Assembly: GCA_021788365.1 (NCBI GenBank)
Contig: JAJYKS010000002.1
Span: 32,521-96,520, forward strand
Source: a bacterium
Lineage (GTDB): Bacteria; Patescibacteriota; Microgenomatia; UBA1400; UBA12108
Direction of reading: 5' to 3'
Length of the DNA: 64,000 bases
How positions within the stretch are numbered: position 1 is the stretch's first letter; each line of letters begins with the position of its first letter. The position numbers and the translations under genes are program-made. Under the pieces are notes generated by a model. That model ran no database searches. It was not told where the DNA came from and worked only from the letters and a program-made list of their open reading frames with translations. Of the stretch, positions 14,724-58,810 are shown piece by piece.

Positions 14724-14739
14724 CCGTGTGTATCCTACT

Positions 14740-15996: not shown

Positions 15997-16036
15997 TTAT
16001 TACTAGAATCTAGAGCCCGAGAGGGCCTAGATCTAA

Positions 16037-16276
<240 letters not shown>

Positions 16277-16289
16277 AGGAGAGCGTCTT

Positions 16290-46155: not shown

Positions 46156-46164
46156 TTCTCGAAG

Positions 46165-46203
46165 CGTAGATTGTAATATCTAGGACCTCAGTCGTGGTGA
46201 GTG
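46165..46203 (+). repeat. Direct repeat of the tRNA-His leader plus its first 7 nt (second copy at 46315-46353)
   Basis: GGACCTCAGTCGTGGTGAGTG is identical in both copies, preceded by similar TAATATC. Confidence 0.6.
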
Positions 46204-46314
46204 GAGAAGCACATCGAGTTGGTCACAACTCGAGAAATGCCTCCAGATACGAAGTAATCTGGGAGGCGCAGCTGGTTAGACCTGCCGGCAGGCAGGGCGC
46301 GTCAATTCTCCAAG
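46204..46314 (+). other. Hairpin-rich insert between the duplicated tRNA-His leaders, including a D-arm-like fragment (GCGCAGCTGGTTAGACC); possible decayed tRNA-His 5' remnant or small structured RNA
   Basis: Three inverted repeats: CGAGTTG-GTCA-CAACTCG; GCCTCCAGAT...ATCTGGGAGGC; CCTGCCGGCAGG. Confidence 0.35.
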
Positions 46315-46345
46315 CTTAGGTTATAATATCCTGGACCTCAGTCGT

Positions 46346-46420
46346 GGTGAGTGTAGCTCAGCTGGTTAGAGCGCGTCCCTGTGGAGGATGAGGTCGCCGG
46401 TTCGATCCCGGTCACTCACC
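46346..46420 (+). tRNA. tRNA-His (anticodon GTG) with encoded G-1 and C73
   Basis: Acceptor GTGAGTG/CACTCAC, G-1, anticodon loop CTGTGGA. Confidence 0.85.
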
Positions 46421-48016
46421 CATTACAGGATTATTCGACAAATAATCCTTAAAATGCACCATGTTATCGGTCTTTTCGAGAGGTTCGAACCTCCTAGCGA
46501 TTGCGCGGACGTCACAAGCCACAGATTTGAGCATAAATAGGGGTTTTTTGAGCTGTATATCGAGGACTCCATCGGTTAGCACTAGGTTCGAACCAAGATA
46601 GCTCACGATCTCCCGCCGCGTGCGCTCGTCACCATGGGCGAACCGCTCGGCTGCCGTTGCGGCGAATGACAGGTCCTGATCTAGCTCTTGGAGTCGCTCG
46701 TCCACTCTAGTATCGATACTATCGAGGAGCCGTTTCCGCGTCTCCTTGTCGTGCTCTAGCTCGGCCAGGCGGCGCTGGTAGTAGTCTTCGGGCACCTTGT
46801 CGTCGAGATATTTCCCGACCAGCGTGTCCATCTGCTTGAGGACCTCATTATAGCCAGTTTGTGCCTGCTGGAGGCTCGTCTGCCGATCACCTACGGACTT
46901 CTCCTGATCCTTTTTGATCTCACCGATTGCCCAGTCGTGGAATCCTTCGGGTATCTGGACCGCATCGAGAAGCTCACCGAACTGACGCTCCAGTTCTGTC
47001 GAAAGGAGGTAATGTTGGCGGCACGGCCCTTTTTTCTTCGTGCAGCGGTAATAGGTATAGCTATGGGTATTGCCGTTTTCCTGATGTTTTGTCTTTTTCT
47101 CTGCAGTGATCGAGCACCCGCACTCGCCGCACGACATGAGACCAGTATAAGGGAAGTAATGGGTCTTGGGACGAGGCTTATTCTTGAGTCCCAGTACGTA
47201 CTGGATCTCCTCAAACTCTTCGGGTTCGATCGCTTTTTTCGCCTTCGAGTCGTAAAAGGTCCCCGAGCTTGCAGGATACTCAAATCTCCCCGCGTACATC
47301 GGGTTTACCAGGAGATCGTACCAGGTTGTAGAGGGGAGCGTATCAACACGCTTACCGTGGAGACCCAAGGACTCCATATACACGCGTGCCTCGGCGGGTA
47401 TCATCTGGTGGCTGGCGACTAGCTTGAGCCCCTTGGAGACGAGGTCAAACACGTCGTTCGGTAGTATCTCGTCTTCTCCGAGCCGCTTGTACTGGGCATG
47501 ACGGTAGCCGAGCGGCAGACTCGCACCAGGGTACCAACCCCGTTCCGCCTTCTTGAGAAGCCCACGGTGAGTATCGGCACTGAGGTCTCGGCTAAACTGG
47601 TTCGTGAGACCGAACTCGACATACATCATCATGACGTTGTCTTCTGGGTACCAGTTACGGTCGACCGTGCGGATATGTTTGATCTCCCCACGCTGAAGCA
47701 TCCCCATGATCCGCCCTGCGTCGTCGGGGTTACGGGAGAGGCGGGAGAGCTTCCAGACGACAATCCCGTCCGCCTCGCCATTCTCAATCCGCTCAACCAT
47801 CCTGTTGAAAACTGGGCGGCCCACCTTGAACCCAGAGCACGACTCGCTCATAGTATCGACTACTTTGAGCTGATTATCGTGCGCCACATCCCCCATGACC
47901 TCGATCTGGGACTCGATCGAGGCTACCTGGCGGTCCTCGTTCGTCGAGCTTTTACGTGCGTAGACAAAGTAGCGGAGAGGTAGCTTTGGCTTGGTACTAG
48001 AGGTAGGAGCGTACAT
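46412..48016 (-). CDS. Large serine recombinase (resolvase domain + recombinase domain + zinc ribbon)
   Basis: 'YVYARKSSTNEDRQVASIESQ' (catalytic Ser) and 'GIVVWKLSRLSRN'; 534 aa; C-terminal Cys pairs. Confidence 0.85.
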   Translation of the reverse strand: MYAPTSSTKPKLPLRYFVYARKSSTNEDRQVASIESQIEVMGDVAHDNQLKVVDTMSESCSGFKVGRPVFNRMVERIENGEADGIVVWKLSRLSRNPDDAGRIMGMLQRGEIKHIRTVDRNWYPEDNVMMMYVEFGLTNQFSRDLSADTHRGLLKKAERGWYPGASLPLGYRHAQYKRLGEDEILPNDVFDLVSKGLKLVASHQMIPAEARVYMESLGLHGKRVDTLPSTTWYDLLVNPMYAGRFEYPASSGTFYDSKAKKAIEPEEFEEIQYVLGLKNKPRPKTHYFPYTGLMSCGECGCSITAEKKTKHQENGNTHSYTYYRCTKKKGPCRQHYLLSTELERQFGELLDAVQIPEGFHDWAIGEIKKDQEKSVGDRQTSLQQAQTGYNEVLKQMDTLVGKYLDDKVPEDYYQRRLAELEHDKETRKRLLDSIDTRVDERLQELDQDLSFAATAAERFAHGDERTRREIVSYLGSNLVLTDGVLDIQLKKPLFMLKSVACDVRAIARRFEPLEKTDNMVHFKDYLSNNPVMGE

Positions 48017-48032
48017 ATACGACCAGCTTACA

Positions 48033-49175
48033 CTATTTGCTCGTAGTTTGTAGTCGTACCATCTCTGCTGCTATCTGGCGAGCCAGATCATTCGTGCCTC
48101 CAGATGTAGCATTACCGGAAAAGTCTATAGATCGGACGATCTCGTTCACTCTCCCAGGGTCGATCGCGCCGTATGCTTGGTAGGTCGTCGCAATATGCTC
48201 GTGGCCTAGGTTTTGTGAGAGAGCCTTCATCTGCTCGGGGGTAGTAATGTGTTTCTCCGTCTCGGCCGTCACGAAATGGCGGAATGTATGGGGGTAGAAA
48301 TAGGGGAGTCTCATTTGCTTACACCGATCGCGGAAAATCGTACGCATCGAACCAGCATCGGCCCAAAATGCCTTACTCACCCCTTTGGCCTCGTACGCAT
48401 AGTTATCTGGTCCTATCTGGCCGATCTCGGTACTCGGGAAAAGTGGGTCATCCAGCCCGTAGTGTTTCTCTCGGGTGAGGTACTCGTACCACTCGGTGAA
48501 GTAACCCGTGAGCGTGCTATCGAGGGGTAGGAGTGTGGTGTAGATGTCCTTGTTAAACTTCGTCTTTACCCCTAGTGACGGAAGTTGTTTTACGAGTCGT
48601 GCCGCTGGATCATAACACCGTATCGAGAGTGACACGACCGCCCTATCCCGCATCCCCGTGAGCGACGTGAAGGCAATGAGAGCACGGTCCCGCCGATCTG
48701 TCTCCGAGAATGTGGGGAAGCTACAAAGTTGCCTGATCTGCTCCAGGGTAGGATAGCTCGGGAGCCTGGCAGAGAGCGCCTCTCGTTGCTCGCCGCGGGA
48801 TAACTTGAGGTAACTGGCGTACTCTGGACGGACCCGCGACTTGTATCCTGGCTGGCTCGATAGCCACGCAAAGAAGTTGCGGACGTGGCGGAGTGTGTAG
48901 TACCTACTCTTGAGGCCCAGAGGTCGTCCAGAACGTTCATTTGCATGGGTCCCCAGGTACCGCTTAAACTGCTCTGCCCGCTTGTCCGTAAACCGTACGA
49001 AGTCCTCGTAATCGCTAAACTCCTCATACTTGCCGATGGCCTTCTCTACCAATCGGATAGAAGCATCACTCATCTGCTCAGGTCCCTTTAGCCAGGACCA
49101 GTAACGCCGTTTCACCAGCTCGTTTTTCTGCCGAATCTCCCCACTCGTAGACATATTATTCCTTCCCACTCCCAA
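48033..49175 (-). CDS. Tyrosine recombinase/phage-type integrase
   Basis: C-terminal 'HTFRHFVTA...LGHEHIATTYQAY' (R-H-R-Y catalytic box). Confidence 0.8.
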   Translation of the reverse strand: MGVGRNNMSTSGEIRQKNELVKRRYWSWLKGPEQMSDASIRLVEKAIGKYEEFSDYEDFVRFTDKRAEQFKRYLGTHANERSGRPLGLKSRYYTLRHVRNFFAWLSSQPGYKSRVRPEYASYLKLSRGEQREALSARLPSYPTLEQIRQLCSFPTFSETDRRDRALIAFTSLTGMRDRAVVSLSIRCYDPAARLVKQLPSLGVKTKFNKDIYTTLLPLDSTLTGYFTEWYEYLTREKHYGLDDPLFPSTEIGQIGPDNYAYEAKGVSKAFWADAGSMRTIFRDRCKQMRLPYFYPHTFRHFVTAETEKHITTPEQMKALSQNLGHEHIATTYQAYGAIDPGRVNEIVRSIDFSGNATSGGTNDLARQIAAEMVRLQTTSK

Positions 49176-49620
49176 GTGAGTGATACAAAGAGGGCTGGTG
49201 GTCTACATTAGTACCTTCTCCCTCCGCTAATATATGTACTGGTTTGGTGAAATACTTACGTACATCATGACCGCACACCGCGCACTTTCCCTGATACTGT
49301 ATCTCCTCCATTCCCGTCCCGATCCGTTTATGGCAATCTACTACTTTAACGTCGAGACCCTTGACCGCCGTGTGGCACGAGAAGCAAAAAAACTCATCGG
49401 TGCCGAGTGGCACCCGTCGCGCTGCCTGTCGGCTGCGGCAATAGCGCCGCACCTCGTCGCCTAGATAGAGCGAGAAGTGACTGTCGGGGTCGATTGGCCG
49501 CAACCCCCCAGCTCGCCACGTGCGAATAGTCTGCGGGTGGACGCCAAGGCATTCGGCCAGCTCGGTAGTGCTATAGCTCCGTATCCCGATCAGCCTGCGG
49601 GTGCTAATGCGCTTCTTCAT
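49156..49620 (-). CDS. Excisionase/MerR-like HTH DNA-binding protein with C-terminal Cys4 zinc ribbon
   Basis: 'STTELAECLGVHPQTIRTWRAGG' HTH; CFSCH...CAVCGH. Confidence 0.5.
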   Translation of the reverse strand: MKKRISTRRLIGIRSYSTTELAECLGVHPQTIRTWRAGGLRPIDPDSHFSLYLGDEVRRYCRSRQAARRVPLGTDEFFCFSCHTAVKGLDVKVVDCHKRIGTGMEEIQYQGKCAVCGHDVRKYFTKPVHILAEGEGTNVDHQPSLYHSLGSGKE

Positions 49621-49818
49621 ACGTCCTCATGGCTGGTTTACGACTTGGCAGATATACGGCACGGTACAGGTTCACCAAATTGGTCCCAAGCTTTTCCGCA
49701 TCCTCATCCGACAGCTCCACCCCATACTCTTGGAGATATAACTTCTGAAAGGCAATAAGTGAATCTCTTGCTAACATACCTCCAAAATATATGGAGGCAC
49801 TTGATCAACCGAGATCAA

Positions 49819-51048
49819 CTATTGATCAACAACCGCGACGGAGCTATCCAAACTCTCCCGACCGCCTAGATAATCATGGTTAAAGCTAGCACTGTGCATG
49901 TTGTAGGTAAGAAATCTGACCACACCCAAGTCTCCGGCAATACGACTGACCAGAGCTCGTGCGGCGTCGTAGGGTACTCTCCCTGGATTTTTTACTTTCC
50001 CGACATCGACTACGTCCACCATCGAGCCTTTAATATCCTCAAATACAACATTTCCCTCGGGGTCGTCGTCAAGCGCCGCTAACAATATGCCCGCATTGTC
50101 TAGGTCGCGTTTAAACCGATAATCCTTGCCGTTGATCCTCAGGTAAACAAAGTTCTCATCTTTTTTCAAAGACCAGTGAACCCCGATAATTAGGTCGATA
50201 CCACCGGTAGGAGTAACCGGCGTTATACTCGAATGCGTATCTGGTTCTAGCTCTAGGTATTCGAGCGTAAATTGGTGTACCTTAGCTATGTAGTAACGAT
50301 AATCCACAGACTTAAACTCATGCGCCTGCTCTGACGGACCAAATTGCTCTCCCTTAATGATCTTCCTCATCTCTGCCTGCATCGACGACCAGCCCATCAG
50401 CTCAAAAAACTTATTTTTCTTGGCGAAATCGTCGTGGATCTTCCACTTGACGTCGTCGATCGCCCAAAACGCGGTTACGATCTTATCCCAGCTAAACCAT
50501 AGCCTGGTGATCTCGATAATCTTTAGACCAGTCATAATCTGGTCATACTTGGTATAGCTTGGAGAAAACGTCCAGGACGTGATCCGCCGCTCATTACTTA
50601 CTTCTCCATACCTTTGAACAAACTTGAGCTCCGCTTCATTGCCGTCCTCCACCATGGTCATGAGTGCGTAGGATAATTTGTCGTAAAGATCCTCGACATA
50701 GCCCCGAGAGGAGGTCATCCTTCCCTCTACGACATCGCGGAACTCGGCGAGATTTTTAGTCACAACCTTGTCCGTTATCCCAGAATACTTCACATGCGAG
50801 GCCACCTGTTTATAGATTTTCTGTATCTCGTCCACAGCTTTTTGCCACAGTTCATTGACTTCCTTGTACTCGGCGAGCTTTTGCTCCTGGATTGCCTTAA
50901 ACATGCCACCCAAATTTTCCTCTTGGTCAAAGACCCGGACATAATCGTATAGCCAGAGGAAAAAATGCTGCTCGCTATCCGCCGCCATTGCCAAGTCGTA
51001 GATGCGCACAAGCCGCTTGCGTAGTACCTCAACATTTGCCGTTGGCAT
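49819..51048 (-). CDS. Hypothetical protein (409 aa), island cargo
   Basis: Long ORF in a co-directional cluster; no recognisable domain. Confidence 0.4.
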   Translation of the reverse strand: MPTANVEVLRKRLVRIYDLAMAADSEQHFFLWLYDYVRVFDQEENLGGMFKAIQEQKLAEYKEVNELWQKAVDEIQKIYKQVASHVKYSGITDKVVTKNLAEFRDVVEGRMTSSRGYVEDLYDKLSYALMTMVEDGNEAELKFVQRYGEVSNERRITSWTFSPSYTKYDQIMTGLKIIEITRLWFSWDKIVTAFWAIDDVKWKIHDDFAKKNKFFELMGWSSMQAEMRKIIKGEQFGPSEQAHEFKSVDYRYYIAKVHQFTLEYLELEPDTHSSITPVTPTGGIDLIIGVHWSLKKDENFVYLRINGKDYRFKRDLDNAGILLAALDDDPEGNVVFEDIKGSMVDVVDVGKVKNPGRVPYDAARALVSRIAGDLGVVRFLTYNMHSASFNHDYLGGRESLDSSVAVVDQ

Positions 51049-51070
51049 ATACCCTATTTTACGCCGCGGC

Positions 51071-51424
51071 CTACATCGCCAAAGGGACTAGCTCTGTGGC
51101 TCCCGGGACGTCGGGGCTGGCGAAAATGTGATATGTGGTCGCATGGTTCGGATCGGTTCCAGGTTCCAAGACGAGAGCCTCGGCAGGGAAGCCATATTCA
51201 TTGAGGATTGCCAAAATATCGGTATCCGTAGCCTCCGGCGAAACGGAAACTTCTGTCATGGCTGTATCGACAATGTATCCCTCGCTTGTGGGGTGAAATA
51301 CCGGCTGCACATTGCGATGTGCCTGAAGAAGGTCAGGTTTCACGGGTCCAGGGAGAGCCGGAAATCCCTCTACCCACGGATCGGAGACATAGAGGTGTGA
51401 GGATAATTTGCAAGAATAGCTCAT
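51071..51424 (-). CDS. Hypothetical protein (117 aa)
   Basis: ORF; 4-nt overlap with the upstream gene. Confidence 0.3.
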   Translation of the reverse strand: MSYSCKLSSHLYVSDPWVEGFPALPGPVKPDLLQAHRNVQPVFHPTSEGYIVDTAMTEVSVSPEATDTDILAILNEYGFPAEALVLEPGTDPNHATTYHIFASPDVPGATELVPLAM

Positions 51425-53100
51425 ACTGACCCAGGACCTAACTGGGGTGTCTCAAGTCTTTTCTTGGCTGTTTCTTCGTCGGCGACATCCTTGGCCAGTT
51501 GTCTCTGTAGAAGCTCCGCTTGTTGCTGTGCTTGATGATCTTGAAAAATTGCTTGACCGGCCTGAATTGTTGCCCGACCGGCTTTTTTTGCAGCAGTGTA
51601 AAGATTATTGAGGGCATCCAGGGTTCTTTGCTTTGATGCAACGGCAGTGGTAAGGGCGATCATGTTTTCGGCATGTTTACCCATGCGCTCTTTTTCATCC
51701 AGGACTATTTTGGGCCGGATAAACATCTTGGCCAGTCCTGTTTCCTGCTTCTGCACAGTTTGCTGGCTTTCAGCAACGATTTTATTAGTTCTGCGAATAG
51801 TGTCAGCTAGATTGCCGAGCAGTGACATCGTGTCACGCGGATTGTTAACCATGATTTCGCCAATAATTTGGTTGCGTTCGAGTGAGTAAAAAATGATCTT
51901 ACCGCCAACGTTAAAGCCGGTAAGCCATTTGTAGAGAGAATTTTGCAGGAGCGCTCCGCCTTTTTTTCTGATCGTGTCAACTGCCGAAGGTGTACCGATC
52001 GACATAAGATAACCACCAGGAACAGCAGATTTGTTGGTGGTGAGGAGGGATAGTGGTAAAGGAAGGTCGTCCTGTTTTTTAGTGATGTCACGGATTACCA
52101 GGCTTGTATTGGTTAATCCCCAAACTCGATTACGATGAAGTTCCTCCTCATGGTCGGTGAGGACGATTTTGTTGGTGACCAGGTCGGTTACAAACATGGT
52201 CTCCGGTTCGGTTTGGAGGGCCAATTCATCGAGGGCAGTACCCATCGTCTTAAATTGTTCGAAAAGAGCATTAGCCTGAGATTGCTCGGCGATGTCACCG
52301 GCGGCGGCCAATACAGCCAAGTCCAGTTCTTTCATAAGTGTATCTTGAGGTTTACCCATTTTTTCCAACTGGAGTAGGTGTGCGGCCAAGGCCTTCTCCT
52401 CTGGAGTAAGCGGGTAGGCATGGTCGAGATGACCTTGCTTTACCGCCTTAGCCAGTTCTTCAGCTTTGGTGACGATGTCCTTCTCTAAATCAGTTAGCCG
52501 AGCTTGCCCTCGATTACTAAAAACAAAAGCTGGATTAATGTCCAAATATCTCTGCTTAATTTTACTGATGGCGGCGGCGATGGCTGGTGTGGAAGGAACT
52601 TCAAGATCGATATGAGTACCAAAATTCTTATTGATCAAATTTTCGCCTAGATCAAGCGCAGTCTTTTCTATCGTGCTGGCCGGGGGGATGAATAGCAGTC
52701 CATGCTGGAGGATTCCGGCTTTAGCTAGGCGCCAAGCCGCGTCGCCCACGGTCAAGGTTTCTTCTTCTCCGGCCTTGGTAGCGGCAGGTTTGGTGCTGGC
52801 CCAGGGGTGCCCGTCGCTAAGGTGTTTCCAGGCGTCATCGCTAGCCCTAACAATAGCGAGGGGATTGATACTTTGAGGATATTCAGCTGGAGGGGGCGTC
52901 GCTGCTGGTTTAGCAGGTGTTTGCTGACCAATAGCCCTCCATGCGTCTTCAGCAGAGATGCCATTGGCCCACGCTGCTGTGTTTATCGTAGGTGTTGGCG
53001 AAGCCGCACCTTGTTTTCCCAGTGCGCCCCACAGCGCCTCACCGGATTGTTGTGAGAGCCATAGTGCAGCGGGACTGGTGGTTTCTTGTACGGAGGCCAT
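51421..53100 (-). CDS. Hypothetical protein (559 aa) with N-terminal repeated (D/E)AW(K/R)xL motifs and a C-terminal coiled-coil
   Basis: 'EALWGAL', 'EDAWRAIG', 'DDAWKHL' and 'DAAWRLAK' repeats; Gln/Ala-rich C-terminus. Confidence 0.45.
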   Translation of the reverse strand: MASVQETTSPAALWLSQQSGEALWGALGKQGAASPTPTINTAAWANGISAEDAWRAIGQQTPAKPAATPPPAEYPQSINPLAIVRASDDAWKHLSDGHPWASTKPAATKAGEEETLTVGDAAWRLAKAGILQHGLLFIPPASTIEKTALDLGENLINKNFGTHIDLEVPSTPAIAAAISKIKQRYLDINPAFVFSNRGQARLTDLEKDIVTKAEELAKAVKQGHLDHAYPLTPEEKALAAHLLQLEKMGKPQDTLMKELDLAVLAAAGDIAEQSQANALFEQFKTMGTALDELALQTEPETMFVTDLVTNKIVLTDHEEELHRNRVWGLTNTSLVIRDITKKQDDLPLPLSLLTTNKSAVPGGYLMSIGTPSAVDTIRKKGGALLQNSLYKWLTGFNVGGKIIFYSLERNQIIGEIMVNNPRDTMSLLGNLADTIRRTNKIVAESQQTVQKQETGLAKMFIRPKIVLDEKERMGKHAENMIALTTAVASKQRTLDALNNLYTAAKKAGRATIQAGQAIFQDHQAQQQAELLQRQLAKDVADEETAKKRLETPQLGPGSV

Positions 53101-53105
53101 AATAT

Positions 53106-53522
53106 TTATTGAGTATTTTCCTTTACTTCGGTAACATCAGCGTCGATAACCTCGTCGTCTCCATCACCCTCATAAACCACTACATCCCCTCGCTTGTTTA
53201 CAGTTTTTTTTGCACGAGCCTTCTCGATAAATTTTTGGAAAATTCCCGGTTTAGCTGGCTGTTTGGGCTGGTCGGCGAGTTTCTTCCACTCCTCTTCACC
53301 GGTTCGAAGGGCAGCAGCGACGGCCTGCACGACGCCTACCCCTGCAGCATGAGCGAGGTTTTCTGGCAACTTCAACTCTTTGGTTACTTGTTGTGTTACC
53401 CCATCCAAAAACCCCGCTTGTTTAGGTGGAGGGGTGAGAGCCTGCCACGCAGATTCGCTGGCAGAGTCACTGTTACCTTGCTGCCCAGATAATGATTTCC
53501 AGGCTTCATCAGATGTAGTCAT
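53106..53522 (-). CDS. Hypothetical protein (138 aa) with the same AW-type repeats
   Basis: 'DEAWKSL', 'ESAWQAL' and 'EEEWKKL'. Confidence 0.4.
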   Translation of the reverse strand: MTTSDEAWKSLSGQQGNSDSASESAWQALTPPPKQAGFLDGVTQQVTKELKLPENLAHAAGVGVVQAVAAALRTGEEEWKKLADQPKQPAKPGIFQKFIEKARAKKTVNKRGDVVVYEGDGDDEVIDADVTEVKENTQ

Positions 53523-53593
53523 TTGTGCTCCTTTTTATGTATGTATTCTATCCTATGGGTCCACTCCTTGGGAAGAGTTCGGAGTTGTTCACG

Positions 53594-53639
53594 CGCCGCA
53601 CTTGGTGACCATTCTCATGGTCAAGAGCCAAGTGCGGCG
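53594..53639. promoter_or_regulatory. Nested palindrome (CGCCGCACTTGG [TGACCAT TCTC ATGGTCA] AGAG CCAAGTGCGGCG) between two island genes
   Basis: 10-bp outer stem and 7-bp inner stem seen in sequence; no U-tract. Confidence 0.35.
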
Positions 53640-53736
53640 GATTGTCGTGAACGATGTATTTGATTGTAATTTTACCGTGGTCGCCGGATAGGCGAGGGCG
53701 CGCGAGGCGGCCACGGTGCTGGCTAAATGGCCAGGT

Positions 53737-54393
53737 TTACGGGCAGGCACCAACCGTGACGGCAGCAAGATGGATCCAGGATCCAACAGGAAAGGATCCC
53801 GACGCCTCAGCAAGCTGGCCGCGCTGGCACACATTGTTGACACAGGTACTGTCAACGATAGATCCGATTTTAATCGTAGTGCCAGCGGGAATGTTTCCGA
53901 GCCCGTTTGGTCCTCCAGCTGTGGAGTTGGGTTCAGGGCGAACTGTGGCTCCATCAGACATGGTAACGCAGTATGGCTGCCCGCCAGTCGTGGACAGTAA
54001 TGACTGCTGCGAACCGGGGGTGGGAGAGACAAGACTCTGATGAACTGCTGTAGGCGGAACCTGGGAATTCGCGGCTGAGGGAATAGGGCTGGGTGTGCCA
54101 AGGATCACTCCTTCAGTGTTGACGACACCGGTGCTTATGCCCCAGATGAAAAACTTCCCTAGCCAAGGACCAACGAAGATGATGAAGAGCACCACCAGGA
54201 TCAAAGTAATGATCCCAATGACGAACAGGAATGCCTGATGCTTCTTCTTCGCGTATATCACTGGTCCCTCGGCGGATTCTTTCCCGGCCGTAGCCCAACG
54301 CCAGATGATCAAACCGGCAACAATGGCAAAAACCAATGCGCCGAACCAGTGCTGGCCAAGCCATGCGAGTAGTTGAACAATTGTGGTTGGCAT
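53737..54393 (-). CDS. Hypothetical membrane protein (2 TM plus Pro/Ser/Thr-rich and Cys-containing extracytoplasmic region)
   Basis: Two hydrophobic helices in the N-terminal half; C-terminal PST-rich segment with 4 Cys. Confidence 0.45.
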   Translation of the reverse strand: MPTTIVQLLAWLGQHWFGALVFAIVAGLIIWRWATAGKESAEGPVIYAKKKHQAFLFVIGIITLILVVLFIIFVGPWLGKFFIWGISTGVVNTEGVILGTPSPIPSAANSQVPPTAVHQSLVSPTPGSQQSLLSTTGGQPYCVTMSDGATVRPEPNSTAGGPNGLGNIPAGTTIKIGSIVDSTCVNNVCQRGQLAEASGSFPVGSWIHLAAVTVGACP

Positions 54394-54516
54394 GATATTT
54401 CTCCTTTTTGATTTGGAACTGAATTTTTTTGGATACGACTTGAATCTTGCGTTCTATTACTTTGTTACTTTGGACTATCAACCACCTCCTTTCGGGATGG
54501 GGTTTGTACACATTCG

Positions 54517-56262
54517 CTATGGTGCGGATGTGGGGGTGGGTGAATTTGCCGTTTGCTGGATTAGCTGTTGCCAGAGTGTCCAGACAAACTTTGCCTGACC
54601 TTCGTGCTGATTCCAGCACGATCCCTTGAGGGGATGGTAGGCAAAACGGTCAACGAACACGGCCTCGGAGGTTGCGCTAGGCAAACCCTGGTCGCTGATC
54701 TTCCTGCATGCAGCATCAGCTGCCGCGGGGATATTTGTGCGATCGGGCTGGTCTGGACCTACAGGCCAATAGTCATTCCACGTACCCGGCATGAACTGCC
54801 AGACACCTGCGGCTCCCACGGGGGAAACGGCGGTGTTGTTGTAAACGGAGCTTTCAGAGAAAGCCACCGCGACAACGAGGCGTGGATCACAGGTACCGTT
54901 CTTTTGGTACGCTGTGACAGCGGCATCCCAAACGTCTTGGGGTGCATAAAAACGCACCTCACTGCCATTCCAATAAGTAATCTGGAATTCCGGCAGAGCG
55001 CTGGGGACGCGGGCAACTGGAGCAGAGGCAACTGCGGGGGGTGGAGAATAGAGGCTGGGGATAAAGTACATCCCGGCCAAGACACCCGCGACCAAGAGAG
55101 TGACAACCACAAACGTCTGTCCATGGCGTTTTTTCTTGGTTTCGGCAGTTGGCTCGTAAGCTCCGCGGGCTTGGCGCAGGCGACCCAGGAGGGTCAAGCC
55201 AAGCCAAAAGGCCAGCATACCGTACACGAGGGCGTTAGGGACGCTCGACTCGCCGTTTAACCAGTCTCGGAAGAGTCTGGTGCGGTAAGCCAAAACATCC
55301 GGCCATTGCCACTGGGCGTAAAAGTATGCGCCAATAGTCATGACCACGCCGACGATGACGGCTACTTCAATGGCTCCTCGCCAGAGACTTTTCTTTCTGG
55401 CGACTTCGCCTTGGGTTCGAGGCTTGCCAATCCGCAAAATTACTTTTGGACCGGCAAATATGAGCCACAAGACGGCGAGGACCACCAACCCCCAAACGGC
55501 TGCTGTTTGAAAAGACTGATAGATCGCAGCAGCGTGCACCTCCTTTGGTGCGGGGTTTGTTTTTACGGTGGGGACAACTATGGTTCCAGGGATATTTGTT
55601 GGAACAATCCCAGGAACTTGCGGAAGCGGGTTTGTGGTGGGTCCACTTGTGACCGTGAGGGTGAGACTATCACCATCCACAGTCCAGTGGAGCACTACTG
55701 GTCCGTAGTCGTTGACGACGCGGACGTCCGCTCCGTTTTTTGTGCTGGGGTCAGCCGAGTTGCGGGATGTTGCTACCGCAATTGAGTATCGGCTATCGAC
55801 CCCGGGGATGGGTGTCGGGTGTGGTGAGTAACTATCGACAGTGAGACCGGCAGATGCCAGTGTCTCCGAGACCATCGATATTATGTCACACGCGCCGCCA
55901 CCTTCAGTAATCCCCCCTACTTCGGAGTAGCCCATACCGTACTCGACGGTATAGGGTCCGAAGACGCCGTTCAGCCAGGTGGTCCCTGACGGGATGGTCA
56001 CCTGACCCTCAAAGCTATCGGGGACGCTAAGATACGCGTCCTTAAACTTTGAACCTGGCGAAACACCCCAGAGTGTCATCAACATATTGAGACGGTAGTT
56101 AGTGTAGCTACCATAGTTAAGTCTCATGTTGAAGACCTTTGAGGTTGGGTTGAAGCTTATCGGCCGTATGGCCTGCACTGTCCCGGTGGGGGACAGAAGA
56201 GCGATTAGCGCAAGGAGAAGAACTCCCAGCGCCAAGGTTTGCTTGGTTTTCATGGAATTCAA
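54517..56262 (-). CDS. Secreted/membrane fusion protein: VanW-like N-terminal domain, TM helices, C-terminal lytic transglycosylase (SLT-like) domain
   Basis: Signal peptide; 'GGGACDIISMVSETLASAGL' (VanW-like GGG-C motif); 3-4 TM helices; C-terminal 'FSESSVYNN...GAAGVWQFMPGTWNDY' (SLT motif). Confidence 0.55.
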   Translation of the reverse strand: MNSMKTKQTLALGVLLLALIALLSPTGTVQAIRPISFNPTSKVFNMRLNYGSYTNYRLNMLMTLWGVSPGSKFKDAYLSVPDSFEGQVTIPSGTTWLNGVFGPYTVEYGMGYSEVGGITEGGGACDIISMVSETLASAGLTVDSYSPHPTPIPGVDSRYSIAVATSRNSADPSTKNGADVRVVNDYGPVVLHWTVDGDSLTLTVTSGPTTNPLPQVPGIVPTNIPGTIVVPTVKTNPAPKEVHAAAIYQSFQTAAVWGLVVLAVLWLIFAGPKVILRIGKPRTQGEVARKKSLWRGAIEVAVIVGVVMTIGAYFYAQWQWPDVLAYRTRLFRDWLNGESSVPNALVYGMLAFWLGLTLLGRLRQARGAYEPTAETKKKRHGQTFVVVTLLVAGVLAGMYFIPSLYSPPPAVASAPVARVPSALPEFQITYWNGSEVRFYAPQDVWDAAVTAYQKNGTCDPRLVVAVAFSESSVYNNTAVSPVGAAGVWQFMPGTWNDYWPVGPDQPDRTNIPAAADAACRKISDQGLPSATSEAVFVDRFAYHPLKGSCWNQHEGQAKFVWTLWQQLIQQTANSPTPTSAP

Positions 56263-56278
56263 CTCCTTTCTTTTAAAT

Positions 56279-56331
56279 TTGAAACCAGCAAGACAGAGGA
56301 CGAAAATTCATCCGCTATCAGCTGGTTTCAA
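56279..56331 (-). promoter_or_regulatory. 11-bp-stem hairpin (TTGAAACCAGC...GCTGGTTTCAA) in the 5' leader of the VanW-SLT gene, ~6 nt before its AAAGGAG RBS
   Basis: Seen in sequence. Confidence 0.3.
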
Positions 56332-56562
56332 TCGCGATAAAAGCTCTATATAGGCCGCAGTCAATTTTGTCGTATCCGTATAAAAGGAGAATATCTCTTT
56401 TATCAAATACAAACGTTCACTTTTTAAGGTGCGTGATCTCCACGACAACCAACTCGCTTCGAGTAGATGTCGCCAAAATCACGTATTCAGTGGGCAGTAA
56501 CCTAGCTAGGGCGCAACCAATCCCACGCGATGTGGTAGTAGATGCGTGTGTAGCTATTGCGT

Positions 56563-56668
56563 AAGATTATAGCCTATTAGTCAAGTTATAGGTCTGGAAA
56601 AAACTGACTGAACCCATGGTACTTAAAAAAGTGCACTAAGCACCATGGGTTCGACTTACTCAGTCAGT
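56563..56668. repeat. Repeat-family member R-a: TTATAGCC/TTATAGGT motif plus a 66-bp palindrome P1 (ACTGACTGA...GTGCAC...TCAGTCAGT)
   Basis: Shares the ACTGACTGA and TTATAGG cores with four other loci in 56.5-61.8 kb. Confidence 0.6.
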
Positions 56669-56698
56669 CGGCGAAACGAGCCACGTAACTATTTGGGA

Positions 56699-56929
56699 TT
56701 AATTCGCTCGCCGAATTAGGTGGAGATTGGTGGGACAGACCGAGGCTGTTTGACCAAATTGGTCGTCCACATCACGGTAGATGGTAACTTGCGTATTGCC
56801 ATCACGCAGTGATGAAACAACACCAATGGTCCCAGCCACGTGAAGTGGATGAGACTTACCAGAGAGCGTGATTTGCATGGCGACGACGTCGCCTAGTCGG
56901 GGAGCTTCCCCGTTTGGATAATTTTTCAT
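56699..56929 (-). CDS. Small hypothetical protein (76 aa)
   Basis: ORF only. Confidence 0.3.
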   Translation of the reverse strand: MKNYPNGEAPRLGDVVAMQITLSGKSHPLHVAGTIGVVSSLRDGNTQVTIYRDVDDQFGQTASVCPTNLHLIRRAN

Positions 56930-57043
56930 TTTTTATATCCTCTTGGTGAAATGTTGGATCAAATTTTGCGGCTTATTGAAGCCCGCGATAAACTACGAGC
57001 ACTCGTACGACGGGAAACTTACATTGTGTCTGGTGGAATCATT

Positions 57044-57311
57044 ATATTCTCCTTTTCAAAAATGGATTTCACGCTGGGGACTAATTTAATTCCCAAAGTG
57101 AAACCCATTTTGTTGGAACACTGACTGAGTGTTAAAGTGCAAGAAGCGATCGGGCAGACGCAAACGTCCACACATCGCCTATTACTCGACGGAGTTTACA
57201 CAACAAATGCGTATGAGTCAAGGTTATAGGCTAAAACCATAGGAAAAATGAGGACCGCTGGTCTGGTAGGTCGCGAAAATCTCTCGAACACGCTCCCGCA
57301 GGCTACCCAAA
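57044..57311. repeat. Repeat-family member R-b (~270 bp), about 80% similar over ~200 bp to R-d at 61625-61825; 3' ~90 bp also matches R-c
   Basis: Contains the hairpin AAAATGGATTTCAC...GTGAAACCCATTTT, the ACTGACTGAGTGTTAAAGTGCAA core, GAGTTTACACAACA, TTATAGGCTAAAACCATAGG and a GGTAGG...CTACCCAAAG element. Confidence 0.65.
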
Positions 57312-57347
57312 GATATAGTTTGATATATTAAAACAGAATGATTGGTT

Positions 57348-57461
57348 ATGGTAGCAGGTGAACTACAACGTGCTATAGAGGCCGCACAAAAGCTGGTAGA
57401 GAGCGGCGGAATGACCGCCGATGAGTTTGAGGAGCTCAAACGAAATCTCCTGGGGGATTAG
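57348..57461 (+). CDS. Possible 37-aa SHOCT-domain peptide
   Basis: 'MVAGELQRAIEAAQKLVESGGMTADEFEELKRNLLGD' fits the SHOCT consensus (GxIT.EEFE..K..LL); directly downstream of R-b. Confidence 0.3.
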   Translation: MVAGELQRAIEAAQKLVESGGMTADEFEELKRNLLGD

Positions 57462-57655
57462 ATTATACCTACCGAACTTCGCATCGAGGGTCAAGAGGCC
57501 AACGGCATCCCGTCCCACGCCAAACCCGCAGTTACGGAAGAAGAGACAACACCAGAGGAGCGCTGGGCGAAGAAAGGTAAAGAAACACCTGCCAGCGGGG
57601 CAGCCAATACCGCGATGAACCTAGAAATTATAGAGCGGTCACAAAAATAGAAAAA

Positions 57656-58039
57656 GTGATATGGATAATTCGTATGACATCACCTGACTATGTAAGGCTT
57701 GAACGGATGGCCACCTGGGCACGAGATACACTCCATCCTTATCTCCTAGAGCTCATCCCTCAGTATGCCTCCGCCACCTTGGCCATGAACATCCAGATGG
57801 CGGCGGGGGTAGTGTATGGGAGAGATGTGTACGGGGTTAATGCCGTGAGTGATCGTGAGCCGATAGCGGCAGATGATCTAGAGCAGTTTGCGGCCATGTG
57901 TGCAGAAGCAATCGCTCACTTCGACACCGATCACCTCTGGACTCCACGATATTCTGCCAAGAAATACAAAAGTAATGATCAGGTCCTGATCATCTCCCAC
58001 CACTTCCGCGCTAACCAGTACTCTCATGTCTGGAATTAA
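57656..58039 (+). CDS. Hypothetical protein (127 aa)
   Basis: ORF within the repeat-flanked cassette. Confidence 0.35.
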   Translation: MIWIIRMTSPDYVRLERMATWARDTLHPYLLELIPQYASATLAMNIQMAAGVVYGRDVYGVNAVSDREPIAADDLEQFAAMCAEAIAHFDTDHLWTPRYSAKKYKSNDQVLIISHHFRANQYSHVWN

Positions 58040-58074
58040 TCGCTCTAATCATTTATACTACGAACAGTAAAAAC

Positions 58075-58431
58075 ATGTTTGATCAAAAGAAGTACAACCA
58101 TTTAGGGTTCACCGAAAAAATAGCTTACCTTACAAACGCTGTAAGGGATGGCGAAATCGGAGAACCAGAAATTTCGAAAATTGTGAAGGATGATCGATCT
58201 GAGGAAGTTATTTTTAACGTCGTTTATCAAATATCTAATGGCCTGGATAGTGACCTTGAAAGTGGTAGCAGAGCCACGCAGGTAGCAGAACAACTAGCCA
58301 TGGCAAGAATGACAGAACTTAAATCCCATTTTCCTCACGGACCTATAGGCAGAGACGCCAAAGGGAAAATGGAATACGATACAACTGGAGACGCACTAAA
58401 ATCTCTCCAAGATAAAATGAATAGACGTTAG
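58075..58431 (+). CDS. Hypothetical protein (118 aa)
   Basis: ORF within the cassette. Confidence 0.35.
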   Translation: MFDQKKYNHLGFTEKIAYLTNAVRDGEIGEPEISKIVKDDRSEEVIFNVVYQISNGLDSDLESGSRATQVAEQLAMARMTELKSHFPHGPIGRDAKGKMEYDTTGDALKSLQDKMNRR

Positions 58432-58433
58432 CT

Positions 58434-58667
58434 ATGCCTAATCCAAGTGAAACACCACCCAAGGGAATCTCGGGAGAAGCACTTGCCGACTGGTGGCGTG
58501 AACACGGTGCCAACATGCAACACGTCGAGATACTTTCAGATGATGAGCGTATTTGCCCTCGATGTGGTGATGTTCAACCTTGTACTGGAACTGACGAATG
58601 TACGTCTTGTGGAGCATCGTTAAAAGGAGCGAAACGACGTCGGCGAAATCTCTTCCAGTCGCAGTAA
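58434..58667 (+). CDS. Small zinc-ribbon protein (77 aa), basic C-terminus
   Basis: CPRCG...CTSCG; 3-nt gap from the upstream ORF. Confidence 0.4.
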   Translation: MPNPSETPPKGISGEALADWWREHGANMQHVEILSDDERICPRCGDVQPCTGTDECTSCGASLKGAKRRRRNLFQSQ

Positions 58668-58684
58668 GTATTTAGTCTAGAACA

Positions 58685-58785
58685 AGCTATAGGCTGAAAC
58701 GATATGCAAATCGATGGCCTGTGATCTGGTAGGTAGCAAAGATCTCTCGAACGACCTCCCGCAAACTACCCAAAGCAATCAAATG
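58685..58785. repeat. Repeat-family member R-c (matches the 3' ~90 bp of R-b), directly upstream of the 58811 ORF
   Basis: Shares the conserved blocks TCTGGTAGGT, ATCTCTCGAAC, CTCCCGCA and CTACCCAAAG with R-b. Confidence 0.6.
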
Positions 58786-58810
58786 GCTAAATACTCGGGA
58801 GAGATTTTCT

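What the first reader, a model, noticed from the sequence alone, without database searches (positions are those of the whole stretch)
46412..56262. tRNA-His-associated island carrying two different recombinases and a block of uncharacterised, likely cell-envelope-acting cargo
A large serine recombinase overlaps the tRNA-His 3' end. It is followed by a tyrosine integrase, an Xis-like HTH/Zn-ribbon protein and six co-directional genes with no recognisable replication, conjugation, capsid or terminase functions. The cargo is instead two proteins with repeated (D/E)AW(K/R)xL motifs, a 2-TM protein with a PST-rich Cys-containing ectodomain, and a VanW-like/TM/lytic-transglycosylase fusion. An element this size with dual integrases and only envelope-remodelling cargo does not match a standard prophage, ICE or defence island. 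It may be an undescribed cell-surface or cell-cell interaction module, which would be relevant if the organism is an episymbiont.
Basis: partly seen in the sequence, partly recalled or inferred. Interest (0 to 1): 0.7.

Follow-up and report, generated by a model that had tools for sequence, protein, structure and literature searches.

The report
Integrative mini-plasmid at tRNA-His
A 12.3-kb mobile element sits at the end of the tRNA-His gene of an uncultured Microgenomates (CPR) bacterium; it belongs to a rare family that also occurs as 8.9-kb DNA circles, and the cell-envelope genes it carries are a chromosomal operon picked up as cargo, not part of the element's own machinery.

Summary
A sister strain has tRNA-His joined directly to the downstream restriction-modification genes. 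The insertion is therefore window 46423-58767 (12,345 bp), flanked only by a 5-bp ACCCA core.

The backbone is five conserved genes: a 409-aa protein, a 57-aa protein, an HTH/Zn-ribbon protein, a tyrosine recombinase and a large serine recombinase (LSR).
- A relative of this backbone was assembled as an identical 8,883-bp circle in 13 runs.
- Another relative is also integrated at a tRNA 3' end whose sequence looks like tRNA-His.

The attP crossover lies inside the LSR gene. Integration replaces the last 26 codons with a single codon, and the missing tail is encoded at the far end of the island.

Relatives carry restriction-modification or defence cargo, not envelope genes. The five envelope genes (581, 218, 138, 559 and 117 aa) form an operon. 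In at least three, probably four, other uncultured genomes the whole or partial operon lies next to def and/or fmt, with no recombinase or tRNA.

My reading is an LSR-driven integrative plasmid-like element, a new family in CPR bacteria, that captured an envelope operon. The operon's function is unresolved. No phage, conjugation or recognisable replication genes were found.

The parts
46347..46421 (+). tRNA-His (GUG). This is the B arm of the attachment site and stays intact after integration.
   Evidence: ARAGORN and Rfam at 62.7 bits. It is identical through ACCCA to the sister-strain tRNA.
46418..46422 (.). attL core ACCCA, the left junction. The sequence reads tRNA ...CACTCACCCA|TTACAGG (element).
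   Evidence: Comparison with the empty site in L011 (...CACTCACCCA|AAGCAACT) and with attP of the circular relative L004.
46412..48016 (-). Large serine recombinase, integrated (truncated) form, 534 aa, ending ...NPVMG-E*. It is the proposed integrase.
   Evidence: Resolvase 4.6e-20 and Zn_ribbon_recom 4.1e-8. phrog_95 integrase 6e-52 over residues 10-484. It is 63% and 61% identical to the LSRs of L004 and L010. The C-terminus is translated.
48033..49175 (-). Tyrosine recombinase (380-aa ORF; gene callers give 373 aa). The proposed role is Xer-like multimer resolution or a second recombination function.
   Evidence: Phage_integrase 2.8e-9. Weak XerA/XerC/XerD matches in NCBIfam. It is 62% identical to the TyrRecs of L004 and L010 and absent from the remote relative L105.
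49156..49620 (-). 154-aa protein with an HTH_17 (excisionase-type) N-terminus and a Cys-rich zinc-ribbon C-terminus. It is a candidate directionality factor or regulator.
   Evidence: HTH_17 2.6e-5 and DZR 0.028. phrog_66 excisionase/regulator 7.5e-6. It is 45-54% identical to its counterparts in L004 and L010.
49604..49777 (-). Conserved 57-aa backbone protein of unknown function.
   Evidence: 54% identical to the 59-aa ORF of L010. A 55-66-aa ORF follows the 409-aa homologue in L017, L015, L104 and L105.
49819..51048 (-). 409-aa hallmark protein of the element family. It has a helical N-terminal part and a C-terminal OmpR/PhoB-type winged-helix DNA-binding domain. It is a candidate replication initiator or regulator.
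51071..51424 (-). Cargo operon gene 5 (117 aa, no TM helix).
   Evidence: Weak pairwise match to the 119-aa gene in the same position in L019 (25% over 60 aa, E 8e-5).
51421..53100 (-). Cargo operon gene 4 (559 aa, no TM helix). The N-terminus carries six xAWxxL-type motifs, and the rest is predicted mostly helical by a low-confidence model.
   Evidence: Only 2 homologues among 5.8 billion proteins, both next to fmt. Motifs are listed. The AF2 model is unusable (pLDDT 45). There are no phage or IMG/VR relatives.
53106..53522 (-). Cargo operon gene 3 (138 aa, three xAWxxL motifs).
   Evidence: 28-32% identical to the 149-167-aa genes in the same position in L018, L019, L100 and L101. Motifs are listed.
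53737..54393 (-). Cargo operon gene 2 (218 aa). It has two TM helices and a Pro/Ser/Thr-rich C-terminal domain containing Cys.
   Evidence: Hydropathy scan. It is 50-58% identical to L018, L100 and L101 counterparts.
54517..56253 (-). Cargo operon gene 1 (578 aa from the ATG; 581 aa from the TTG at 56262). Its layout is signal peptide, a conserved N-terminal domain (sub-threshold VanW-like), four TM helices and an SLT lytic transglycosylase domain.
   Evidence: SLT 6e-8 and VanW 0.0056. TM layout. The N-terminal 470 aa are about 52% identical to proteins encoded just after def in L018, L100 and L101. Those carry other C-terminal wall-acting domains or none (M23+SLT in L101).
56610..56652 (.). 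Hairpin (16-nt arms) downstream of the 76-aa gene. It is a paralogue of the host hairpin at 61181-61218.
   Evidence: Repeats I14 and I10 and the alignment.
56699..56929 (-). 76-aa ORF of unknown function inside the insertion.
   Evidence: ORF list. No family hit.
57042..57221 (.). About 180-bp non-coding segment with a 24-nt inverted repeat (57060-57110). It is 76-88% identical to the host segment 61621-61803 upstream of pfkB.
   Evidence: Repeats D2, D3, D5 and I2. A similar 24-nt inverted repeat sharing CAAAGTGAnnCCCA is in the circular relative L004.
57224..57309 (-). Internal second copy of the element's P arm. It encodes an LSR tail (G-SLRERVREIFATYQTSGPHFSYGFSL*) followed by ACCCA (57305-57309). 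It is either an alternative right end (giving a 10.9-kb unit) or a relic of tandem accretion.
   Evidence: Repeat D1, 78% identical to 58688-58775. Translation. The pattern TGGGTAGYYTGCGGGA matches only these two sites and attP of the circles.
57656..58667 (+). Three small ORFs (127, 118 and 77 aa) between the two P-arm copies. They lie inside the insertion and their function is unknown.
   Evidence: ORF list. No Pfam or PADLOC hit. Absent from sister strain L011.
58687..58772 (-). attR. The P arm encodes the 26-aa C-terminal tail that excision would restore to the LSR (G-SLREVVREIFATYQITGHRFAYRFSL*). The ACCCA core is at 58768-58772 and host sequence starts at 58773.
   Evidence: Translation. 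The tail is homologous to that of the full-length LSR on the circular relative (…SPIMG-SLRERVRTLFSNYLDMLTVAVA*). The junction was mapped against L011.

Best explanation
This is a small integrative, plasmid-like element of a previously undescribed family found in CPR/Patescibacteria.

Proposed mechanism:
- The large serine recombinase inserts the element at the extreme 3' end of tRNA-His. The crossover lies within a 5-bp ACCCA core, and the tRNA stays intact.
- attP lies inside the recombinase's own coding sequence. The free circle therefore encodes a full-length enzyme (about 559 aa here).
- Integration moves the last 26 codons 12.3 kb away to attR and leaves a 534-aa enzyme ending in one tRNA-derived codon. 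Excision would rebuild the long form.

Inferred roles of the other backbone genes:
- The 409-aa winged-helix protein, the hallmark of the family, probably binds element DNA as a replication initiator or master regulator.
- The HTH_17/zinc-ribbon protein is the likeliest excision or directionality factor.
- The tyrosine recombinase most likely resolves multimers of the circular form.

Cargo: everything upstream of the backbone is exchangeable. Relatives carry restriction-modification or defence genes. This copy carries a five-gene envelope operon taken from a chromosome: a membrane-anchored multi-domain wall hydrolase, a 2-TM protein, and three soluble proteins, two with AW motifs.

Status of each step:
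- Shown: the boundaries, the empty site, the circular relative, the split recombinase gene, the conserved backbone against variable cargo, and the chromosomal location of the cargo operon elsewhere.
- Inferred: which recombinase acts at tRNA-His, autonomous replication, the roles of the 409-aa, HTH and TyrRec proteins, and what the envelope operon does.
For: - Empty site. Sister-strain contig L011 aligns to window 45234-46422 and then directly to 58768-61231. The junction sequences share only ACCCA.
- Circular relative. Thirteen contigs carry P0007. All six that were fetched are exact rotations of one 8,883-bp circle with a 30-nt k-1 overlap. The circle carries the 409-aa homologue, HTH, TyrRec and LSR plus a GmrSD-like gene, an EcoRI-type methylase and a Zn-ribbon protein.
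- Split LSR gene. The circular form ends ...SPIMG-SLRERVRTLF...*. The integrated forms end ...NPVMG-E* in the window and ...SPIMG-G* in L010, which runs into a tRNA 3' end. The window's far end encodes G-SLREVVREIF...* in frame.
- Backbone conservation. SerRec is 61-63% identical, TyrRec 62%, HTH 45-54%, the 57-aa protein 54% and the 409-aa protein 41-46%. The same gene order occurs in L017.
- Variable cargo. A remote Patescibacteria relative (L105) has a 409-like gene, a small ORF, HTH_17, a BglII R-M system and an LSR at the edge of core genes.
- Cargo operon elsewhere. The whole operon lies between def and fmt in L018 and L100. It follows def in L101/L102 (contig ends within the operon) and precedes fmt in L019.
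- Short core. A 5-bp shared core fits a serine recombinase, which needs only a 2-bp crossover (established knowledge), and not a tyrosine integrase.
- Host lineage. Enolase is at best 72% identical to Woesebacteria and Microgenomates MAGs.
Against: - No circular or empty-site molecule was seen for the window's own element. Activity is inferred from intact ORFs and from relatives.
- No recognisable replication protein or origin was found. The circle could be an abundant excision product and not a replicon.
- The model of the 409-aa protein is only moderately confident (pLDDT 61.8). A winged helix alone does not indicate replication.
- Pfam's 'Recombinase' domain (PF07508) was not reported for this LSR.
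- Two P-arm copies (57224-57309 and 58687-58772) leave the functional right end ambiguous, and I have no proven account of how the duplication arose.
- The taxonomy of the genomes that hold the chromosomal operon was not established.
Confidence: 0.72

Rival explanations
1. The island is a dedicated mobile cell-surface or cell-cell interaction module. The envelope genes are its purpose, and the two integrases serve to move them.
For: The envelope operon lies inside the insertion and is tightly packed with the backbone: the gaps from the 138-aa gene to the LSR are at most 41 nt. All ORFs are intact. The 581-aa protein has wall-acting domains placed outside the membrane. The host is a CPR bacterium, a group inferred to be episymbionts (and general knowledge).
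Against: None of the other family members with visible cargo carries these genes. They carry R-M or defence genes. The operon occurs without any recombinase at the def/fmt locus in L018, L019, L100 and L101/L102. It is therefore an ordinary chromosomal operon that was captured once.
Confidence: 0.12
2. The tyrosine recombinase, with the adjacent Xis-like HTH protein, is the tRNA-His integrase. The serine recombinase is then only a resolvase or invertase.
For: tRNA 3' ends are the classic targets of tyrosine integrases (general knowledge). The HTH_17 gene directly precedes the TyrRec gene, as in xis-int pairs.
Against: attL and attR share only 5 bp, fewer than the 6-8-bp identical overlap tyrosine integrases need, and the tRNA end is not duplicated. 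The junction falls inside the LSR reading frame in three independent elements, and the displaced tail is conserved at the protein level. L105 has an LSR at the element edge and no TyrRec. The protein is 534 aa with a zinc-ribbon recombinase domain, so it is an integrase-type serine recombinase and not a small resolvase.
Confidence: 0.08
3. It is a degraded prophage or phage satellite whose structural genes were lost or are unrecognisable. The SLT protein and the 2-TM protein would be a lysis cassette.
For: PHROGs matches for the LSR, TyrRec and HTH (integration/excision) and for the SLT domain (tail lysin/endolysin families at 1e-4 to 1e-6).
Against: There is no capsid, portal, terminase or tail hit. 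Neither the 409-aa family, the LSR nor the 559-aa family has a relative in IMG/VR or in 50,697 phage genomes. The model of the 409-aa protein has no viral structural match. The complete circular relative is 8.9 kb with no structural genes. The SLT protein has four TM helices and sits in a chromosomal operon elsewhere.
Confidence: 0.05
4. It is a fixed composite relic. Two or more successive insertions at tRNA-His have decayed, and the block no longer moves as a unit.
For: There are two P-arm copies 1,463 bp apart. Low-GC DNA (0.42-0.46) runs from 56 to 62 kb. The neighbouring R-M block shares a hairpin and an inverted-repeat segment with the island, and its endonuclease gene is split here.
Against: All backbone and cargo ORFs are intact. 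The LSR tail at attR is in frame with a stop at the same place as in the internal copy. The insertion is precisely absent from a strain that is 82-94% identical.
Confidence: 0.2

Closest known systems
Large-serine-recombinase integrases of temperate phages and integrative elements (phiC31, Bxb1, TP901-1, A118; TndX of Tn4451; Ccr of SCCmec)
   Same: It has an N-terminal resolvase catalytic domain with a Y-x-R-x-S motif (residues 19-23) and a zinc-ribbon recombinase domain, and is over 500 aa. The gene lies at the very edge of the element. The att sites share only a few bases. PHROG integrase family 95 matches at 6e-52.
   Different: Identity to any plasmid-borne LSR is below 25%, and there is no phage context. 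The target is the last bases of a tRNA gene. attP lies inside the recombinase ORF, so the enzyme's C-terminus differs between the free and integrated states. I did not find this described for LSRs in the literature searches I ran, which are not exhaustive.
Integrative plasmids of actinomycetes (pSAM2, SLP1) and other small integrative elements that also exist as circles
   Same: It is a small (9-12 kb) element integrated at a tRNA 3' end, and a circular form of a relative was recovered. This resemblance is recalled from general knowledge.
   Different: Those plasmids use a tyrosine integrase with a long tRNA-derived repeat and carry recognisable Rep and transfer genes. Here there is an LSR, a 5-bp core, and no recognisable Rep or transfer gene.
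SSV1-type archaeal integrases, and the integration-dependent immunity of mycobacteriophages such as BPs, where attP lies inside a gene (recalled from memory, not tested here)
   Same: Integration cuts through an element gene, so its product differs between the free and integrated states.
   Different: Those systems use tyrosine integrases. In SSV1 the int gene is split in the middle, and in BPs the truncated gene is the repressor. Here only the last 26 codons of a serine recombinase are exchanged, and no functional consequence has been shown.
Multi-domain membrane-anchored cell-wall hydrolases (SLT, M23 and other domains), such as those of Gram-positive conjugation systems (PrgK, CwlT), as a comparison for cargo gene 1
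   Same: The protein has a TM anchor and an extracytoplasmic SLT domain. Homologues swap in M23 or polysaccharide-deacetylase domains.
   Different: No VirB4/VirD4-type ATPase or relaxase lies within the operon or the island; L100 has a DUF87/TrwB-like ATPase gene about 1.3 kb beyond fmt. The conserved N-terminal domain and the four partner genes have no named family.

Membership tests
Large serine recombinase (integrase type) | N-terminal resolvase catalytic domain with the serine nucleophile motif | tested here: met
   PF00239 at 4.6e-20 over residues 17-160. The sequence YARKS at residues 19-23 was read.
Large serine recombinase (integrase type) | Large C-terminal region with a recombinase domain and a zinc ribbon; total length over 400 aa | tested here: inconclusive
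   Zn_ribbon_recom at 4.1e-8 and length 534 aa. phrog_95 integrase aligns over residues 10-484. PF07508 'Recombinase' was not reported for this protein.
Large serine recombinase (integrase type) | Catalyses attP x attB integration with a 2-bp crossover and minimal shared sequence | not testable with these tools
   The sequence is consistent: attL and attR share only ACCCA. No biochemistry was possible.
Integrative element (genomic island) at a tRNA gene | Present or absent between close relatives, with precise junctions at the tRNA | tested here: met
   L011 joins the tRNA-His end directly to window position 58768.
Integrative element (genomic island) at a tRNA gene | Direct repeat of the tRNA 3' end at the distal junction | tested here: not met
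   No second copy was found with up to 3 mismatches. Only 5 bp are shared, as expected for a serine and not a tyrosine integrase.
Plasmid (autonomous replicon) | Closed circular molecule | tested here: met
   Met for a relative only: an 8,883-bp circle, with six assemblies that are exact rotations of one another. It was not shown for the window's own element.
Plasmid (autonomous replicon) | Recognisable replication initiator or origin | tested here: not met
   No Rep family in Pfam, NCBIfam or PHROGs. No iterons in L004. The 409-aa protein has no plasmid homologue.
Integrative conjugative or mobilisable element (ICE/IME) | Relaxase, coupling protein or type IV secretion genes | tested here: not met
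   None in the island or in L004 and L010.
Prophage or phage satellite | Capsid, portal, terminase or tail genes, or relatives among viral contigs | tested here: not met
Defence island / R-M-carrying mobile element | Cargo made of restriction-modification or other defence genes | tested here: not met
   Not met for the window's insertion: PADLOC gives nothing for the eight island proteins scanned, and the 218-aa and 581-aa proteins were not scanned. It is met for relatives L004, L009, L010 and L105. The Eco57I-type methylase at 59532-61166 lies outside the insertion.
VanW-domain protein (cargo gene 1, N-terminal domain) | Match to PF04294 above the gathering score | tested here: inconclusive
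   16.6 bits against a cutoff of 27, though it covers model positions 15-128 of 130. Two of 11 homologues match, at best 1e-4.
OmpR/PhoB-type winged-helix DNA-binding domain (409-aa protein, C-terminus) | Fold consisting of a beta-sheet, three helices and a C-terminal hairpin | tested here: met

The most novel reading that the evidence does not exclude
Two linked ideas, neither excluded by my evidence.

(a) Placing attP inside the serine recombinase gene works as a built-in state switch. The episomal form makes a long enzyme with a conserved 26-aa tail, and the integrated form makes a tail-less enzyme. The two forms would differ in stability or directionality. This would be an integration-dependent control not described for serine integrases.

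(b) The element family shuttles not only defence genes but whole envelope operons between CPR lineages. The AW-motif/2-TM/wall-hydrolase module would then be a transferable determinant of the episymbiont's surface or its attachment to a host.
Probability: 0.2. Interest if true: 0.7.

Novelty: new variant of a known kind. Interest (0 to 1): 0.45.

Why it matters
- **Rare documentation in CPR bacteria.** Mobile elements of CPR/Patescibacteria are poorly documented, and these bacteria are very hard to manipulate. This locus supplies the integrated form, an empty target site, a closed circular relative, and base-level attB/attP/attL/attR sequences.
- **Possible genetic tool.** That is the information needed to test a native integration system (LSR plus the tRNA-His attB) as a genetic tool for Microgenomates.
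- **A new marker family.** The locus defines a hallmark protein family (409 aa, about 320 remote relatives, no Pfam family) that marks such elements.
- **Gene capture.** It shows that the elements can capture a multi-gene envelope operon as well as defence genes.
- **A five-gene envelope operon of unknown function.** It is the part most likely to repay experimental work.

Tried and rejected
- **att repeat.** Searching for a repeat of the tRNA-His 3' end found nothing. The boundary came from a sister-strain contig instead.
- **Left flank.** I asked whether the 429-aa gene left of the tRNA belongs to the element, because a 431-aa gene sits in the same place in the circle. The two are not homologous, and the circle carries no tRNA.
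- **Searches with no relatives.** The 409-aa family has no hit in 185,579 species-representative genomes or IMG/VR. The LSR and the 559-aa family have none in IMG/VR. The 559-aa and 409-aa proteins have none in the phage or plasmid collections.
- **Structure of the 559-aa protein.** pLDDT was 45 with only 3 sequences, so I ran no fold search on it.
- **Structure and profile searches for the 409-aa family.** The PDB profile search gave only chance-level hits. Foldseek against viral structures gave nothing. The afdb50 library was unavailable.
- **Relic recombinase genes.** tblastn over 56.3-61.8 kb found only the two tail-coding P arms. The apparent extension past the core is not real similarity.
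- **Other scans.** The promoter and terminator scan was no better than shuffled sequence. No iterons were found in the circle.
- **attR of L010.** It is not on that contig.
- **Literature.** Searches found no description of this element family.

Full report
**What is in the sequence**

ARAGORN and Rfam place tRNA-His(GUG) at 46347-46421. An unbroken string of genes lies on the minus strand:

| Coordinates | Product | Evidence |
|---|---|---|
| 46412-48016 | 534-aa serine recombinase | Resolvase 4.6e-20, Zn_ribbon_recom 4.1e-8; stop codon 10 nt inside the tRNA |
| 48033-49175 | tyrosine recombinase | Phage_integrase 2.8e-9 |
| 49156-49620 | 154-aa HTH_17 + zinc-ribbon protein | HTH_17 2.6e-5 |
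| 49604-49777 | 57-aa ORF | none |
| 49819-51048 | 409-aa protein | no Pfam family |
| 51071-56262 | genes of 117, 559, 138, 218 and 581 aa | see below |

- PHROGs, NCBIfam and PADLOC add only integrase and excisionase labels and an SLT domain. They give no capsid, terminase, relaxase, T4SS or Rep.
- The 559-aa and 138-aa proteins carry six and three xAWxx(L/I) motifs. These recur in their homologues.
- The 218-aa protein has two TM helices.
- The 581-aa protein has a signal peptide, four TM helices and a C-terminal SLT domain.
- Its 'VanW-like' N-terminal domain stays below threshold.

The descriptive part of the finding therefore holds.

**Boundaries**

The tRNA 3' end is not repeated anywhere in the window. 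A look-up of a 90%-identity cluster mate of the neighbouring PfkB returned an 8.8-kb contig from a sister strain (L011, GCA_021839925.1).
- L011 aligns to window 45234-46422 at 82% identity. It then continues without a gap at window 58768-61231 at 93%.
- The empty site reads ...CACTCACCCA|AAGCAACTAAATGG.
- The window's left junction reads ...CACTCACCCA|TTACAGG.
- The window's right junction reads ...CAAACTACCCA|AAGCAATCAAATGG.

The insertion is therefore 46423-58767 (12,345 bp), 2.5 kb longer than the finding. The two junctions share only ACCCA. The Eco57I-type methylase (59532-61166) and its endonuclease are present in the sister strain too, so they lie outside the insertion. The endonuclease is intact in L011 (239 aa) and split into 124 + 117 aa in the window.

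**Relatives and the circular form**

The 409-aa protein has only seven homologues (39-49% identity) among 5.8 billion proteins.
- **Circle.** One homologue lies on an 8,913-bp contig recovered in 13 sequencing runs. The six copies I fetched each have a 30-nt terminal overlap and are exact rotations of a single 8,883-bp circle. The circle encodes the 409-aa homologue, the HTH/Zn-ribbon protein, the tyrosine recombinase and a 554-aa serine recombinase. It also carries a multi-zinc-ribbon protein, a GmrSD-like/HNH nuclease and an EcoRI-type methylase.
- **L010 (13.5 kb).** The same backbone sits next to an MmeI-type enzyme, a helicase and a T5orf172 protein. The contig ends inside a tRNA 3' end whose acceptor-stem sequence looks like tRNA-His.
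- **L009.** The 409-aa homologue lies next to an MmeI-like methylase and an SNF2/PLD protein.
- **L017.** It repeats the order 409-59-157-TyrRec.
- **Identities to the window.** LSR 61-63%, TyrRec 62%, HTH 45-54%, 57-aa protein 54%, 409-aa protein 41-46%.
- **Wider family.** A profile search finds about 320 remote relatives of the 409-aa protein, none with a Pfam family. One lies in a Patescibacteria MAG (L105). There it is followed by a small ORF, an HTH_17 gene, a BglII R-M system and a 499-aa LSR abutting core genes, with no tyrosine recombinase.

The backbone is thus conserved and the cargo is exchangeable. Cargo in relatives is usually defence-related.

**How it integrates**
- In the circle the LSR ends ...SPIMG-SLRERVRTLFSNYLDMLTVAVA*.
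- In the window it ends ...NPVMG-E*. In L010 it ends ...SPIMG-G*, with the last codons supplied by the tRNA.
- The reverse strand of window 58687-58770, at the far end of the insertion, encodes G-SLREVVREIFATYQITGHRFAYRFSL* in frame.

attP therefore lies inside the LSR gene. Integration exchanges its last 26 codons for one codon, and excision would restore them.

Three observations point to the LSR as the tRNA-His integrase, and not the tyrosine recombinase: the 5-bp shared core, the position of the LSR at the element edge, and the LSR-only relative L105. This assignment is inference, and no biochemistry was possible.

A second P-arm copy lies at 57224-57309. It is 78% identical to the distal copy and encodes G-SLRERVREIFATYQTSGPHFSYGFSL* followed by ACCCAAAG. 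It sits 1,463 bp inside the distal one.
- The 16-nt pattern TGGGTAGYYTGCGGGA occurs only at these two sites and at attP of the circles.
- I read this as tandem accretion: a 10.9-kb unit next to a 1.46-kb relic that holds three small ORFs.
- I cannot prove how it arose. No relic recombinase gene is present.

**The other backbone proteins**

The AlphaFold model of the 409-aa protein is moderate overall (pLDDT 61.8), but its C-terminal 110 residues reach about 80.
- The protein is therefore a DNA-binding protein with a novel helical N-terminal part.
- Because a relative persists as a clean circle, I favour a role as replication initiator or regulator. No Rep family, iterons or plasmid homologues support this.

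**The cargo**

The 559-aa protein has just two homologues, and the 581-aa protein has a handful. Their contigs show a five-gene block in the same order as in the window:
- a large hydrolase-like membrane protein;
- a 2-TM protein of about 210 aa;
- a protein of about 150 aa;
- a protein of about 560 aa;
- a protein of about 115 aa.

Where the block lies:
- In L018 and L100 the whole block lies between def and fmt. L100 also has mreB and a Wzy_C/TPR gene upstream.
- L101/L102 show mreB, Wzy_C/TPR and def, then the first genes of the block before the contig ends.
- L019 shows the last three genes next to fmt.
- No recombinase or tRNA is present in any of them.

Further details:
- Identities to the window are about 52%, 50-58%, 28-32% and 42-46% for the first four genes. 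The fifth gives a weak 25% match.
- The first gene keeps its N-terminal domain and TM block but swaps its C-terminal catalytic domain: none recognised in L018, M23+SLT in L101, SLT here.
- The window contains no def, fmt or mreB.
- None of the cargo proteins has a phage, IMG/VR or defence match.

The envelope genes are thus a pre-existing operon that this element copy captured just upstream of, and co-directional with, its backbone. Its function is still unknown. The topology suggests a membrane complex that remodels the wall, with cytoplasmic AW-motif partners. The structure prediction for the 559-aa protein failed (pLDDT 45).

**Host**

The window encodes DnaE, CTP synthase, F-type ATPase subunits, PPDK and enolase. 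The enolase is at most 72% identical to species representatives, and the best matches are Woesebacteria and Microgenomates-group MAGs. The host is therefore an uncultured Microgenomates-group CPR bacterium.

**Verdict**

- The block is mobile, and it is neither a phage nor an ICE.
- It is not a purpose-built envelope island. It is an LSR-driven integrative plasmid-like element of a new CPR family, whose relatives mostly carry R-M or defence genes, and it has picked up a chromosomal envelope operon.
- I rate it a new variant of a known kind, with moderate interest (0.45).
- The most novel points left open are the split LSR gene as a possible state switch, and the unknown five-gene envelope operon.

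Noticed in passing
window 46154-46356: The tRNA-His promoter and the first 11 nt of the tRNA are duplicated 150 bp upstream (46154-46206 against 46304-46356, 87% identical). Between the copies lies a 108-nt segment (46196-46303) with three stable hairpins (z = -3.3). It is more conserved in the sister strain than the flanking gene, and it contains a D-loop-like GCAGCTGGTTAG. It has no Rfam match. It could be an unannotated small RNA or a tRNA-derived relic.
   Followed up: partly
window 56602-57230 and 61181-61813; L011 3593-4328: A hairpin and an inverted-repeat-bearing segment of about 190 bp are conserved. Between them the small minus-strand gene differs completely in each copy: 76 aa in the island, unclear ORFs next to pfkB in the window, and a Cys-rich 75-78-aa peptide with a signal peptide in sister strains L011 and L012. 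It looks like a swappable small-gene cassette.
   Followed up: partly
window 58811-59532 and 59532-61166: This is a type II R-M pair just outside the insertion. The 239-aa putative endonuclease is intact in sister strain L011 and split into 124 + 117 aa here, while the Eco57I/N6_Mtase methylase is intact (95% identical). The block has low GC (0.42-0.45) and shares the hairpin and inverted-repeat segment with the island, so it may be an older relic of a related element.
   Followed up: partly
L004 8672-8725; window 57060-57110 and 61639-61691: 24-nt inverted repeats in the circular relative and in the window share the core CAAAGTGAnnCCCA. This could be a family-specific operator, but the similarity is short and could be chance.
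   Followed up: partly
window 57348-57461: A 37-aa ORF (MVAGELQRAIEAAQKLVESGGMTADEFEELKRNLLGD) lies just right of the internal P-arm copy. By eye it resembles a SHOCT-type short C-terminal domain. It was not tested against a profile.
   Followed up: no
window 14651-14723: Rfam reports a weak tRNA (39.2 bits) between tRNA-Lys and tRNA-Glu that ARAGORN did not call.
   Followed up: no
L105 (GCA_026415975.1, JAOAFZ010000005.1) 8589-16478: A Patescibacteria MAG carries a remote 409-aa-family gene, a 66-aa ORF, HTH_8 and HTH_17 genes, a BglII-type R-M pair and a 499-aa LSR next to core genes. This suggests a much wider class of LSR elements in CPR genomes marked by this protein family. A ParA-like (CbiA) gene and a small biosynthetic-looking cluster lie upstream.
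   Followed up: no
L004 7358-8653 (minus strand): The 8.9-kb circle encodes a 431-aa protein with several zinc-ribbon motifs and no other recognisable domain. It has no counterpart in the window's element. It is another candidate for an element maintenance function.
   Followed up: no
L100 13267-15408: About 1.3 kb beyond fmt at the chromosomal envelope-operon locus lies a 713-aa DUF87/TrwB-like ATPase gene on the opposite strand. Whether it is linked to the operon is unknown.
   Followed up: no
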